Below are positions 60,501-64,000 of a DNA stretch of 64,000 nt, one piece after another. Within the stretch, counting starts at the first letter, position 1. Each line of letters begins with the position of its first letter. The DNA comes from Escherichia coli (GTDB taxonomy: Bacteria > Pseudomonadota > Gammaproteobacteria > Enterobacterales > Enterobacteriaceae), in the NCBI RefSeq assembly GCF_009931435.1, contig NZ_CP043414.1, one strand, 5' to 3'. Made by a program: the position numbers.

Positions 60501-63500
60501 GCCGCAGAAGAGTTGGGTTTAACCACTTCCGCCATTAGCTACACCATCAAGCGAATGGAAACAGGGCTGGATGTGGTGCTGTTCACTCGCAGTACCCGCA
60601 GCATTGAGTTAACGGAGTCCGGGCGTTATTTTTTCCGCAAAGCTACCGACCTGCTGAATGATTTTCACGCCATCAAACGCAGCATCGATACTATTTCGCA
60701 GGGCATAGAAGCGCGTGTGCGTATTTGTATTAATCAGCTGCTTTATACGCCCAAACACACCGCACGCTTATTACAGGTACTGAAAAAGCAGTTTCCAACC
60801 TGCCAGATTACCGTCACCACCGAAGTGTATAATGGCGTCTGGGATGCGATTATTAATAATCAGGCGAATATCGCTATCGGCGCACCCGACACGCTGCTGG
60901 ACGGCGGCGGCATTGATTACACGGAGATTGGCGCGATTCGCTGGGCTTTTGCTATCGCCCCGGATCACCCGTTAGCCTTTGTGCCGGAACCCATCGCCGA
61001 AAGCCAACTGCGTCTCTATCCTAATATCATGGTGGAAGACACCGCGCATACGATTAATAAAAAAGTGGGCTGGTTGCTGCATGGGCAGGAGTCGATTCTG
61101 GTGCCAGATTTCAACACCAAATGTCAGTGCCAGATTTTAGGCGAAGGAATTGGTTTTTTGCCGGATTACATGGTCCGCGAGGCGATGGCGCAAGCGCTAC
61201 TGGTTACCCGACAAATTCATAACCCGCGCCAGGATTCGCGCATGTTACTGGCAACTCAACACTCTGCCACCGGTCAAGTGACGCAGTGGATTAAAAAGCA
61301 GTTTGCGCCAAAGGGTATATTAACAGGGATCTATCAGGATTTACTGCATCGGGAGAATTGATATCTACCAACCTCCCGATGCGCTGTGAATAGCGGTTTA
61401 CATCAACCACCTGCTTTCATTACCCATTCAGAGATAAATTTATTACCCGGTACTGGCGGAGAGTACAAATAGCCCTGCAAAAAGTGAACGCCTTTGCCGA
61501 TCATTAAATCCGCCTGCTCCTGGGTTTCTACCCCTTCCGCCACGATACTCAGACCAGGCTTACGCGCCAGTTCGACAATATTGTCCACAATATGACCGGA
61601 AATTTCGTCGACACTCGCCATTTGCACAAACGACTTGTCAATTTTAATAAAATCGACCGGAAACGCCTGCAGATAACGATAGGTCGCATAACCCGTACCA
61701 AAGTCATCCAGCGCAAAGGTAATGTTGTGCTGATGAAGGCTGTCAAATATCGCTCTGGCTTCTGGCGTTACCGGAATGGGGTTGCGTTCCGTTAGCTCAA
61801 GAACCAGCTTGATTTTATCGTTACCTAATTTCTTGACCAGGTTCAGACACTCTTTTTCAAATCCTGCGGCCAAAAAACATCCTGCCGAGACGTTGATTCC
61901 AATATGGAAATTATCCGGCAGCAAATGTTTTACTGGCATCAGAATATCCGCAGTCTGTTTCATCAGCTGGCGAGTCATTATGACAATAAGACCGGATGAC
62001 TCCGCCAGAGGAATAAACTGATCCGGTGGGATAATTCCCGTTTGCGGATGTTCCCAGCGAACAAGCACTTCACAGCCCGTCAGTACCCCTGTCTGCGCGC
62101 AGAAAACGGGCTGGATCCACGGTTTGAATTCGTGATTTTCCAACGCCAGACTGATGGCTTCAGGCGTGACGATATGGTGACAACGGTTATCAGGAATATA
62201 AAAATTATTTTTATTTCCCTTGCCACTGATGACTTGCGGATGATATTGAAAAAAGATATCCCGCCAGAAAGTAATATCACTCTGGATGCCTAATTTTTCA
62301 TACAACTGCTTCTTCTGATGTGAAATTGTCTTTGCGCTACGATTTCTGTATTGTGATATTTCTGTAACCGACATTCCCTCCATTAGCAGCTTGAGTAAAA
62401 GCCGTTCTTTTTCGGACACGATACCAGGCAAGGTCAAATTAACCGTTGCCCCGAACTCTTCCAAAAAAACACTCAAATCATGCGAAGCCATTGAACACAC
62501 CTTGATGAAATCTTGTGCGCCAGCTAAATCTGCTTGTCTTCACTCTAACTGATAAAGCTGACTGCAAGAAAATGACACAGAGAGCCGAATTATCTCCCGT
62601 TCGGCTCTCTCTCCTTTTACTCATTATTCAGATCAGAATTGCCACTTAATGCCCACCATTGCAGAGGTGTCATTATATCCTCTATCGGCAACCTGAACGC
62701 CCACATTCCCCCAGACATTCAGGTTGGCATTTAGCTGTCCTTCCACCCCGGTTTTTATCTCAGCAATATTTCGGGCGCCATCCTGAGTGACGGAGACGCC
62801 ATCCATGCTGGTGCTGAAATCCTTACTGTTATGCAGCCAGTTCACTTCTACAAACGGCTGGAACTCGCGGGATTTACCCTCATCCATTTTATGGTGGCTC
62901 TTCAGCCAGGTTTTTACGCCAAGTCGGGTTTGAACATTGCCATCACCGTTGCTATGAACGAGGGTTCCGTTGCTTTCGCGGTGATTATCGGCTTTGACTC
63001 CCATCCAGGTAACCTGTGCTTGCGGCTGAACATACCATTCATTACGCGTTCCCTGGCTGCCATTAAATTCAGCTAATTTGTGTTTGTATCCAGCTTCCAG
63101 TGAAGCGGTAAATCCTTTTGATTTATAGGATTCACTTTGTAAGTCATCCCCTTTCACTGTGTTATCAAACCAACTGTACTGCGCCCAACTGTCGAGATAC
63201 GCGCCATTACGCGACTCGTCATCGGCATACCAGGTGGCATAGAGGCCTGTGCTATATCCGTTCACACTCGCTTTTGCACGATAACCAGTTCGCGAGGAAA
63301 TGGTTTTGCTGTCGCTGTTGCCATATCCCGCCATGACCCCAACATGCCAGCGATCGCTGCCGTTTTGGCTCCACTGCGCGATATCGCCTCCCAGTTGCAG
63401 AACATAGCGATTGCTTTGGGTTTTCAGCTGGCCGCTGCCATCACGCCATTTATTATGACCACCTTCATGGCGCATCCACATAGTGGTTTGTTTCTGCTCA

Positions 63501-64000
63501 CCCGTCACCATGTCGGTATAGTACGTATTACCCAGACGCTCATGCAGACGCGTGTTGAACATGGTATTCGCTGCTGCAAGGTTCGCAATGTAGCTACCCG
63601 CCTCCGGTCGCAGGTCATTATCCACATTCAGATCCGGACCCGGCGTAGGTGTCGGGTTAGGGTTCGGCTCTGGATTCGGGTTTGGCTCCGGATTCGGCAT
63701 CGGGTCGGGCTCCGGCTGCAGTTCAGGAGAATCACTGCCGCTGGTCAGATACCAGTTACCGCTATTTGCCCCCTGTCCACGCGCGAGAGTGTAGTCATAT
63801 GCCCCCGCAACGATACGCCCAGCCTGAACAAATTCGCCCTCAGACTTACCGTCTACATGGATAAGTTCGATACCGTTAAGGGTTTTCGCACCTGTACCGC
63901 CAGCGTTATTCACCGTAACGGCAGTCGTGCCGCTAGTATCGCCCTCGACAACCAATTTATCGGTTACTGAGTCATCGCCATTCAGTACCGTATTCATTAC

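What the first reader, a model, noticed from the sequence alone, without database searches (positions are those of the whole stretch)
62633..64000. Second autotransporter (AIDA-type) next to pdeL, where K-12 has betT adjacent
A Pro-rich linker and beta-barrel translocator domain are present on the minus strand; the passenger domain lies outside the window. From memory, K-12 has betT next to yahA/pdeL, while some pathogenic E. coli carry an autotransporter in this neighbourhood. Its placement next to a c-di-GMP phosphodiesterase regulator is suggestive for coordinated motility and adhesion control.
Basis: partly seen in the sequence, partly recalled or inferred. Interest (0 to 1): 0.3.

Follow-up and report, generated by a model that had tools for sequence, protein, structure and literature searches.

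The report
Known EhaA adhesin gene, 3′ end
The stretch is the last third of ehaA, a well-known E. coli surface adhesin gene that sits between betT and pdeL in about a quarter of strains (O-island 15 of O157:H7), so the finding is real but ordinary.

Summary
Confirmed and identified. Window 62633-64000 (minus strand) is an ORF open to the window edge. It encodes an autochaperone domain, a 32-residue Pro-rich spacer and a complete autotransporter beta-domain (Pfam E=5e-48). It matches the solved AIDA-I transport unit end to end (E=3e-91). It is the 3′ end of ehaA: 451/455 residues match EhaA of O157:H7 Sakai. This is O-island 15, described in 2001-2008.

ehaA is present in 1405 of 5426 complete E. 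coli genomes, at this site in every locus inspected. K-12-type strains (3651 genomes) have unrelated DNA there. Three public assemblies identical to the window over its last 9-17 kb carry an intact 1327-aa gene followed by betT. The "truncated passenger" refutation therefore fails, by proxy.

"AIDA-type" holds for the translocator only. The passenger lacks AIDA-I hallmarks.

The co-regulation idea is untested, but I found a concrete lead outside the window. The Cra box and P1 promoter studied in K-12 as the "pdeL promoter" have a homologue upstream of ehaA in every ehaA-carrying locus inspected, including Escherichia whittamii. The 141-nt ehaA-pdeL gap has no recognisable promoter. Novelty: already known.

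The parts
62633..64000 (-). 3′ 1368 nt of ehaA (codons 873-1327 plus stop). The gene runs off the window; the full gene is 3984 nt in identical proxies.
   Evidence: ORF open to the window edge. 98.3-98.6% DNA identity to annotated ehaA. 451/455 aa identical to Sakai EhaA. Exact suffix of the 1327-aa protein of L013.
63785..63997 (-). C-terminal part of the autochaperone (AC_1 / pertactin-like) domain at the end of the passenger
   Evidence: Pfam PF18883, E=2.7e-22, fragment aa 2-72. Aligns to the IcsA autochaperone 3ML3/5KE1 and to AIDA-I 4MEE residues 51-137.
63632..63727 (-). Pro-rich spacer (PELQPEPDPMPNPEPNPNPEPNPNPTPTPGPD, 47% Pro)
   Evidence: Read directly from the translation.
62636..63616 (-). 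Alpha-helical linker plus 12-stranded beta-barrel translocator (Pfam core 62702-63481)
   Evidence: PF03797, E=5.3e-48. TIGR01414, E=2e-121. Aligned to AIDA-I 4MEE residues 145-469 at i-E=3e-72. Corresponds to the C-EhaA 989-1327 fragment used for surface display.
62579..62610 (.). G+C-rich hairpin 23 nt after the ehaA stop codon. Candidate (probably leaky) ehaA terminator.
   Evidence: 12-pair stem by the terminator scan, 11 in the RNA fold. A 66-nt stretch containing it folds at -20.2 kcal/mol, z=-2.1. On the gene strand the tail is GUGUCAUUUUCUU, which is not a canonical U-tract. The scan's tail rule was met only on the + strand.
62492..62632 (-). 141-nt ehaA-pdeL gap. Unrelated to the K-12 pdeL upstream region except for the last ~15 nt (RBS AAGGTGTGTTC).
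   Evidence: blastn homology with K-12 ends at window 62506. Sequences compared. No sigma-70-like site on either strand in 62300-64000.
61403..62491 (-). pdeL (LuxR-type HTH + EAL c-di-GMP phosphodiesterase/regulator), same strand, immediately downstream of ehaA
   Evidence: Pfam EAL E=1.7e-61 and GerE E=2.3e-7. Annotated pdeL in matching genomes.
62192..62491 (-). 5′ ~300 nt of pdeL that belong to the ehaA haplotype block: 62-90% identical to K-12 per 60 nt, against 90-100% for the rest of the gene
   Evidence: 24 non-synonymous and 31 synonymous codon differences in codons 1-110, against 1 and 31 in codons 111-362. The HTH core (aa 41-80) and K60 are conserved.

Best explanation
The feature is the 3′ third of ehaA. 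This gene encodes the classical (type Va) autotransporter adhesin EhaA and is the sole gene of O-island 15 of E. coli O157:H7. It lies at its usual chromosomal site between betT and pdeL.

How it works, from the established mechanism of the family plus published EhaA work (not shown here):
- The 1327-aa precursor is exported through Sec by an extended (ESPR) signal peptide.
- The C-terminal ~330 residues encoded in the window insert into the outer membrane as a 12-stranded barrel with a helical linker in its pore.
- The passenger is threaded out C-terminus first and folds on the autochaperone segment, also encoded in the window. The Pro-rich spacer sits between passenger and barrel.
- The exposed beta-helical passenger stays on the cell surface. 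It mediates cell-cell aggregation, biofilm formation and adhesion to bovine rectal epithelial cells.

The gene in the source genome is almost certainly intact.
For: **Identity and position**
- Megablast of 62400-64000 hits annotated 'ehaA: autotransporter adhesin EhaA | pdeL' at 98.1-98.6% in 1391 complete genomes. The gene order is betT-ehaA-pdeL in each locus inspected.
- The fragment is 451/455 aa identical to Sakai ECs_0362.
- The segment without K-12 homology measured in Sakai is exactly 4643 bp, the published size of OI-15, whose only ORF is ehaA/z0402.

**Domains**
- The full-length proxy has ESPR + AC_1 + beta-domain.

**Integrity**
- L013, L014 and L015 are 100%, 99.99% and 100% identical to the window over its last 9.1-17.5 kb.
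- Each carries an uninterrupted 1327-aa ORF, then 572 nt, then betT.
- The window fragment is an exact suffix of that protein.
- 1388 of the 1405 ehaA-positive genomes cover at least 80% of the gene. All 39 full-coverage genomes in the spread sample match over the whole 3984 nt, one of them split by an IS2 insertion.

**Function**
- Surface location, aggregation, biofilm formation, adhesion to bovine terminal-rectum cells and reduced adherence of a mutant in pig ileal loops are as summarised (Wells 2008; Yin 2009).
- The beta-domain 989-1327 is a working translocator for foreign passengers.
Against: - The passenger, signal peptide and betT junction are not in the window. Integrity rests on identical proxy assemblies, not on the source genome itself.
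- The proxy's passenger allele is only 88-92% identical in protein to O157 EhaA over residues 1-300 and 701-800 (95.5% overall). Binding properties measured for the O157 protein may not transfer exactly.
- Disrupted copies exist in a few strains: IS1 in strain I2 and IS2 in AHM8C160RI.
- The host receptor of EhaA is unknown.
Confidence: 0.95

Rival explanations
1. Regulatory reading A. ehaA and pdeL are driven from one Cra-activated, PdeL-responsive, H-NS-silenced promoter upstream of ehaA. pdeL is expressed at least partly by read-through of the ehaA hairpin. The adhesin and the c-di-GMP switch protein would then be produced together.
For: **The K-12 elements are experimentally defined.** Oligos in Reinders 2021 Table S4 map the Cra box/CDB to intergenic positions 375-405, the 'P1'/RNAP-binding promoter TTGATC-16-TATAAT to 514-541, and the CIB palindrome AATAAG-N6-CTTATT to 179-196.

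**The same module lies upstream of ehaA.**
- The ehaA haplotype has the identical 17-nt Cra box, then TTGATT-16-TATAAT after 118 nt (121 nt in K-12), then a ~235-nt leader, then ehaA.
- The ~220-nt local alignment scores 31, against 15.5±1.9 (maximum 21) in 300 shuffles.
- The module is kept in all 13 E. coli ehaA-haplotype loci that include this region and in E. whittamii.
- A PdeL-box-like palindrome AATAAG-N6-CTTATA sits 22 nt after the Cra box and is conserved in E. whittamii. Its chance probability in shuffles is ~0.006.

**The gap looks permissive for read-through.**
- ehaA and pdeL are co-directional and 141 nt apart.
- No sigma-70-like site occurs in 62300-64000 on either strand.
- The hairpin lacks a proper U-tract on the gene strand.
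Against: - There are no transcript data. The consensus promoter scan is crude and can miss real promoters.
- The hairpin may terminate efficiently.
- The PdeL-box motif was derived from a single K-12 site and searched for post hoc.
- The CDB next to the Cra box is only 7/13 conserved.
- All the promoter evidence lies outside the window, in proxy loci.
- No paper in the searchable library links ehaA with Cra or PdeL.
Confidence: 0.4
2. Regulatory reading B. The adjacency is just chromosomal history. ehaA terminates at the hairpin and pdeL has its own, unrecognised promoter. There is no functional coupling.
For: - pdeL exists without ehaA in about 67% of complete genomes, so PdeL does not need EhaA.
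- A stable hairpin follows the ehaA stop codon.
- In the genomes inspected ehaA lies at this one chromosomal site. The adjacency could reflect vertical inheritance and homologous recombination alone.
Against: - No promoter-like site lies in the gap or in the last 1.4 kb of ehaA.
- The known pdeL regulatory module is found upstream of ehaA rather than upstream of pdeL in this haplotype.
Confidence: 0.5
3. The gene is a pseudogene in the source genome, with the passenger truncated, frameshifted or IS-disrupted beyond the window.
For: The 5′ 2.6 kb is not in the window. IS-disrupted copies occur in a few strains.
Against: - Three independent assemblies identical to the window over 9-17 kb have the intact 3984-nt ORF.
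- 1388 of 1405 positive genomes cover at least 80% of the gene.
- The 19 DNA differences from Sakai in the window part cause only 4 amino-acid changes. This pattern indicates purifying selection.
Confidence: 0.03
4. It is an orthologue of AIDA-I or Ag43 (a self-associating autotransporter) rather than EhaA.
For: The translocator and autochaperone are clearly homologous to AIDA-I (4MEE, E=3e-91).
Against: - 341-347 bits against the AIDA-I model, whose cut-off is 1200.
- No Pfam domain is detected in the proxy passenger between the ESPR signal peptide and the autochaperone (residues ~41-838), so no AIDA repeat domain.
- No aah-like glycosyltransferase gene lies upstream; the gap to betT is 572 nt with no gene called.
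- 99% identical to EhaA.
Confidence: 0.01

Closest known systems
EhaA (Z0402 / ECs_0362), O-island 15 of E. coli O157:H7 (Wells et al. 2008; reviewed in PMC8565820)
   Same: Same gene at the same locus. The window part is 451/455 aa identical. It sits 141 nt upstream of pdeL. Length is 1327 aa and the architecture is ESPR-passenger-AC_1-Pro-rich spacer-barrel in identical proxies.
   Different: The allele of this lineage differs in the passenger: 88-92% protein identity in residues 1-300 and 701-800, 95.5% overall, 94.4% DNA. The window as a whole is at most 98.1% identical to any of 5426 complete E. coli genomes over 40000-62600.
AIDA-I (transport unit structure 4MEE)
   Same: The autochaperone and the linker plus 12-stranded barrel are homologous over their whole length (E=3e-91). 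The secretion mechanism is the same.
   Different: The passenger is unrelated at family level. The AIDA-I model cut-off is not reached, no AIDA repeats are found, and there is no adjacent aah heptosyltransferase gene. AIDA-I is placed in Group 4 (SAATs) and EhaA in Group 8.
Group 8 autotransporter adhesins: MisL, ShdA, IcsA, YfaL/EhaC, AatA, EhaJ, UpaE (Clarke et al. 2022)
   Same: Strong C-terminal matches to the MisL (E=8e-154), ShdA and YfaL models and to the IcsA autochaperone. All are outer-membrane-anchored adhesins that promote aggregation and biofilm formation.
   Different: None of these equivalog models reaches its cut-off. EhaA's host receptor is unknown, whereas MisL, ShdA, EhaJ and UpaE bind extracellular matrix proteins.
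The K-12 pdeL regulatory region (Cra box, CDB, CIB, P1 promoter; Reinders et al. 2016/2021)
   Same: The identical 17-nt Cra box, a near-identical -35/-10 pair at the same spacing and a CIB-like palindrome occur in the betT-proximal intergenic region of the ehaA haplotype.
   Different: In the ehaA haplotype this module is followed by ehaA, not pdeL. The CIB-like palindrome lies between the Cra box and the promoter instead of ~200 nt upstream. The rest of the region has diverged beyond recognition. This module lies outside the window.

Membership tests
EhaA (autotransporter adhesin of OI-15) | Near-identity to the characterised EDL933/Sakai protein | tested here: met
   451/455 aa over residues 873-1327. 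98.3% DNA identity. The proxy full-length protein is 95.5% identical.
EhaA (autotransporter adhesin of OI-15) | Chromosomal position between betT and pdeL, replacing the K-12 intergenic DNA | tested here: met
   The pdeL side is in the window. The betT side is seen only in proxies identical to the window and in annotated genomes. The island size of 4643 bp matches the published OI-15.
EhaA (autotransporter adhesin of OI-15) | Intact 1327-aa ORF with an N-terminal ESPR signal peptide | tested here: inconclusive
   Not in the window. Met in L013, L014 and L015, which are 99.99-100% identical to the window over 9-17 kb.
EhaA (autotransporter adhesin of OI-15) | Mediates aggregation, biofilm formation and adhesion to epithelial cells | not testable with these tools
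   Published for the O157 allele only.
Classical (type Va) autotransporter | C-terminal 12-stranded beta-barrel translocator with a helical linker, ending in an aromatic residue | tested here: met
   PF03797 E=5e-48. TIGR01414 E=2e-121. Full-length alignment to the 4MEE and BrkA 3QQ2 barrels. The protein ends ...GIKWQF.
Classical (type Va) autotransporter | Autochaperone segment at the passenger C-terminus | tested here: met
   PF18883 E=2.7e-22 in the window fragment and 3.8e-28 in the full-length proxy. Matches the IcsA autochaperone structures.
Classical (type Va) autotransporter | Sec signal peptide and beta-helical passenger | tested here: inconclusive
   ESPR is found in the proxy. The passenger fold was not modelled, and no Pfam domain covers proxy residues ~41-838.
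AIDA-I / SAAT group (AIDA-I, Ag43, TibA) | Passenger built of ~19-residue AIDA-type repeats; whole protein reaches the AIDA-I model cut-off | tested here: not met
   NF033176 scores 341 bits against a cut-off of 1200, and only the C-terminal 327 aa match. No Pfam domain is detected in proxy residues ~41-838, so no AIDA repeat domain.
AIDA-I / SAAT group (AIDA-I, Ag43, TibA) | Dedicated heptosyltransferase gene (aah/tibC) immediately upstream | tested here: not met
   In the proxies, 572 nt of 31% G+C non-coding DNA separate betT from ehaA and no gene is called there.
Cra/PdeL-controlled transcription unit (as defined for K-12 pdeL) | Cra box, PdeL box and P1 promoter upstream of the gene | tested here: met
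   For ehaA in proxy loci only, outside the window: identical Cra box, TTGATT-16-TATAAT and AATAAG-N6-CTTATA. The K-12 elements were mapped from published oligos.
Cra/PdeL-controlled transcription unit (as defined for K-12 pdeL) | Transcription that depends on Cra and PdeL and responds to c-di-GMP | not testable with these tools
   No expression data for ehaA were found.

The most novel reading that the evidence does not exclude
In the roughly one quarter of E. coli strains that carry ehaA (including O157:H7 and this lineage), the Cra- and PdeL-controlled, H-NS-silenced bistable 'pdeL promoter' characterised in K-12 is actually the ehaA promoter. ehaA and pdeL would form one unit, so the low-c-di-GMP 'PdeL-ON' state would also switch on an aggregation adhesin. 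The ehaA arrangement is present at ~92% identity in Escherichia whittamii, so it predates E. coli and may be the ancestral form. The K-12 arrangement, where the promoter feeds straight into pdeL through a 327-nt leader, would then be a derived or imported haplotype.
Probability: 0.35. Interest if true: 0.5.

Novelty: already known. Interest (0 to 1): 0.2.

Why it matters
As filed, the finding has little weight. EhaA and its position (OI-15) have been known since the O157:H7 genome was published and since the 2008 characterisation. The window adds only another allele.

Two by-products may be useful.

1. The betT-pdeL interval is an old two-haplotype locus, not an island inserted into a K-12-like site. 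The divergent block reaches about 300 nt into pdeL and changes 24 of the first 110 PdeL residues. K-12 results on PdeL's N-terminus and promoter should therefore not be carried over uncritically to EHEC and other ehaA-carrying strains.

2. The experimentally defined Cra box and P1 promoter of K-12 pdeL have a clear homologue upstream of ehaA. This turns the vague idea of 'coordinated adhesion and c-di-GMP control' into a cheap experiment.

Tried and rejected
- **Simple deletion in K-12.** Rejected. The ~820-bp K-12 intergenic DNA has no ehaA remnants by tblastn or sensitive blastn. It shares with the ehaA haplotype only the first ~40 nt after betT, including the terminator hairpin, the ~220-nt Cra/P1 module and the last ~15 nt before pdeL.
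- **Exact source genome.** A look-up with the window's PdeL protein returned only widespread loci that match the window's ehaA part at 98.3-99.4%. The FdrA protein look-up gave the identical proxies.
- **Outgroup survey.** The genome-contig scan with the 17-nt Cra box returned 56 loci. Only E. whittamii was relevant; the rest looked like chance matches in unrelated organisms and were not inspected. No E. coli record was listed, so the polarity of the two haplotypes rests on one outgroup.
- **Structured RNA.** An Rfam search of the proxy betT-ehaA intergenic region and the first ~130 nt of ehaA gave no match. The window's own ehaA-pdeL gap was not searched. The whole 149-nt gap does not fold better than shuffles (z=-1.2); only the hairpin does.
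- **Literature.** No paper was found linking ehaA to PdeL or Cra, or giving expression data for Z0402/ECs0362. Reinders 2016, Yilmaz 2020 and Shimada 2011 are not held. The K-12 promoter was therefore mapped from the oligo table of Reinders 2021.
- **Structure prediction and large protein searches.** Not run. Near-identity to a characterised protein and to a solved homologue made them unnecessary.
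Full report
**1. Observation**

On the minus strand an ORF ends with a stop codon at 62633-62635 and is still open at base 64000. Its 455 codons encode four parts, in order:

| Part | Fragment aa | Window coordinates | Evidence |
|---|---|---|---|
| End of an autochaperone domain | 2-72 | 63785-63997 | Pfam AC_1, E=2.7e-22 |
| Pro-rich spacer (47% Pro) | 92-123 | 63632-63727 | translation |
| Helical linker plus barrel | 129-455 | 62636-63616 | aligned to AIDA-I 4MEE |
| Autotransporter beta-domain core | 174-433 | 62702-63481 | PF03797 E=5.3e-48; TIGR01414 E=2e-121 |

- The whole fragment aligns with the crystallised AIDA-I transport unit (4MEE, E=3e-91). Its N-terminal part aligns with the IcsA autochaperone structures.
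- pdeL (GerE-type HTH + EAL) follows 141 nt downstream on the same strand.
- A first autotransporter gene lies at 201-3110, so 'second' is right.

**2. Identity**

- Megablast of 62400-64000 against 5426 complete E. coli genomes finds 1396 genomes. In 1391 of them one match covers at least 80% of the query, at 98.1-98.6% identity, annotated 'ehaA: autotransporter adhesin EhaA' next to pdeL.
- In strain 2017-02-2CC and in O157:H7 Sakai the order is betA-betB-betI / betT - ehaA (3984 nt, ECs_0362) - pdeL - yahB.
- The window fragment is 451/455 aa identical to Sakai EhaA residues 873-1327. The 19 nucleotide differences cause only 4 amino-acid changes.
- The literature describes this as O-island 15, 4643 bp, whose only ORF is ehaA/z0402. 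EhaA is a surface protein that causes aggregation and biofilm formation and mediates adhesion to bovine terminal-rectum cells. A mutant adheres less in pig ileal loops.
- The beta-domain (residues 989-1327, entirely within the window) is used as a display scaffold.

**3. Is the gene intact beyond the window?**

- The window is not identical to any complete genome in the collection. The best match is 98.1% over 40000-62600.
- An exact-protein look-up with the window's FdrA found three assemblies: an ENA metagenome scaffold (L013), GCA_016664965.1 (L014) and GCA_002965045.1 (L015). They match the window at 100%, 99.99% and 100% over its last 9.1-17.5 kb.
- In all three, ehaA is an uninterrupted 1327-aa ORF, preceded by 572 nt of non-coding DNA and by betT. 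The window fragment is an exact suffix of that protein.
- The full protein has an ESPR signal peptide, AC_1 and the beta-domain.
- Across E. coli, 1405 genomes have ehaA and 1388 cover at least 80% of it. Rare copies are hit by IS1 or IS2.
- The passenger allele of this lineage is diverged from the O157 allele: 88-92% protein identity in residues 1-300 and 701-800, and 95.5% overall.

**4. The junctions and the K-12 comparison**

- K-12 has betT, then 874 nt containing the tiny yahV ORF, then pdeL.
- blastn shows that the K-12 interval shares with the ehaA haplotype only about 40 nt after betT, including the terminator hairpin. The unmatched Sakai segment is exactly 4643 bp.
- On the pdeL side, homology resumes about 15 nt before the start codon but at only ~80% identity for the first ~300 nt of pdeL. 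It then rises to 90-100%.
- Codons 1-110 differ at 24 non-synonymous and 31 synonymous codons. Codons 111-362 differ at 1 and 31.
- The HTH core and K60, the DNA-binding residue of Reinders 2021, are conserved. The N-terminal 20 residues and the interdomain linker are not.
- The K-12-type interval is present at 80% coverage or more in 3651 genomes (67%), and ehaA in 26%.
- The locus is therefore an old dimorphism, not a recent insertion or deletion. No ehaA remnant is detectable in the K-12 leader.

**5. 'AIDA-type'?**

- The translocator and autochaperone are clearly AIDA-I-like.
- The whole protein reaches none of NCBI's family cut-offs: AIDA-I 341 of 1200 bits, MisL 510 of 1297, YfaL 225 of 1459.
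- It shows no AIDA repeat domain and has no upstream glycosyltransferase gene.
- Clarke et al. 2022 place EhaA in Group 8 with MisL, ShdA, IcsA and YfaL. AIDA-I, Ag43 and TibA form Group 4.
- It works like AIDA-I in secretion. It is not a member of the AIDA-I/SAAT passenger group.

**6. Coordination with PdeL**

No paper in the searchable library links ehaA to PdeL or Cra. The sequences nevertheless give a lead.

*The K-12 elements.* Cra and PdeL co-activate the pdeL promoter in K-12, and H-NS silences it. The oligo table of that study lets the elements be placed on the 874-nt K-12 interval.

| Element | K-12 interval (874 nt) | ehaA haplotype, betT-ehaA gap (572 nt) |
|---|---|---|
| CIB palindrome / CIB-like palindrome | AATAAG-N6-CTTATT, 179-196 | AATAAG-N6-CTTATA, 207-224 |
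| Cra box | 376-392 | 169-185, identical 17 nt |
| CDB | about 392-405 | 7/13 conserved |
| P1 promoter | TTGATC-16-TATAAT, 514-541 | TTGATT-16-TATAAT, 304-331 |
| Cra box to -35 spacing | 121 nt | 118 nt |
| Leader, then gene | 327 nt, then pdeL | ~235 nt, then ehaA |

*Strength of the match.*
- A ~220-nt local alignment across the module scores 31, against 15.5±1.9 (maximum 21) for 300 shuffles.
- The CIB-like palindrome has a chance probability of ~0.006 in shuffles.
- The Cra box and promoter are kept in all 13 E. coli ehaA-haplotype loci that include this region.

*Outgroup.* Escherichia whittamii has betT - Cra box - promoter - ehaA (92% identity) - 139 nt - pdeL, which is 92.5% identical to the window's pdeL from its first base. 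The ehaA arrangement therefore predates E. coli.

*The ehaA-pdeL gap in the window.*
- The 141-nt gap and the last 1.4 kb of ehaA contain no sigma-70-like site on either strand.
- The hairpin at 62579-62610 is stable, but on the gene strand it is followed by GUGUCAUUUUCUU rather than a U-tract.

*Inference, not shown.* ehaA is probably transcribed from the homologue of the K-12 'pdeL promoter', and pdeL may be partly co-transcribed with it. I give the full model about 0.35-0.4. All the promoter evidence lies outside the window.

**7. Verdict**

- The feature is real, correctly described, and already known: ehaA / OI-15.
- The interest of the finding as filed is low.
- The regulatory lead and the extension of the haplotype block into pdeL are modest additions that can be tested directly.

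Noticed in passing
window 62192-62491 (5′ third of pdeL, minus strand): The first ~300 nt of pdeL are only 62-90% identical to K-12 per 60 nt (24 of 110 residues changed), while the EAL domain differs at a single residue. The ehaA/K-12 haplotype boundary therefore lies inside pdeL, between the HTH and EAL domains.
   Followed up: partly
L013 1065-1227 (proxy for the DNA about 3 kb beyond the window end); K-12 locus L004 7873-8038: The experimentally defined Cra box and P1 promoter of K-12 pdeL have a homologue upstream of ehaA in all ehaA-haplotype loci inspected and in E. whittamii. A CIB-like palindrome AATAAG-N6-CTTATA lies between them.
   Followed up: yes
window 201-3110 (minus strand): This is the 'first' autotransporter: a 969-aa ORF with a beta-domain (Pfam E=1.2e-46; TIGR01414 E=3e-88) and only a weak BafA-family C-terminal match. 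It was not identified further.
   Followed up: partly
window 54654-55106: A tandem array of 4.9 copies of a 93-bp unit (94% matches) lies in the yahG-yahI gap. The units contain REP-like palindromes (GCCTGATGCG...CGCATCCGGC), so it looks like a BIME-type array. Copy number differs among related loci.
   Followed up: no
window 46865-51301: Four long ORFs lie here on the minus strand. In the proxy L013 the matching stretch encodes a sugar-type ABC transporter (periplasmic binding protein, ATPase, two permeases) between the yahJ-side ASCH gene and the yahK-like dehydrogenase. It is present in only some of the related loci. The window ORFs themselves were not scanned.
   Followed up: no
whole window, tested on 40000-62600: The best of 5426 complete E. 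coli genomes is only 98.1% identical. Exact matches exist in GCA_002965045.1, GCA_016664965.1 and one ENA metagenome scaffold. The window appears to come from a lineage not represented among the complete RefSeq genomes searched.
   Followed up: partly
L003 (E. coli strain I2) 6126-7801: An IS1B element has removed the 3′ ~3 kb of ehaA, the ehaA-pdeL gap and the first codons of pdeL. An ESPR-containing ehaA stub remains. This is a natural variant that separates pdeL from whatever lies upstream of it.
   Followed up: no
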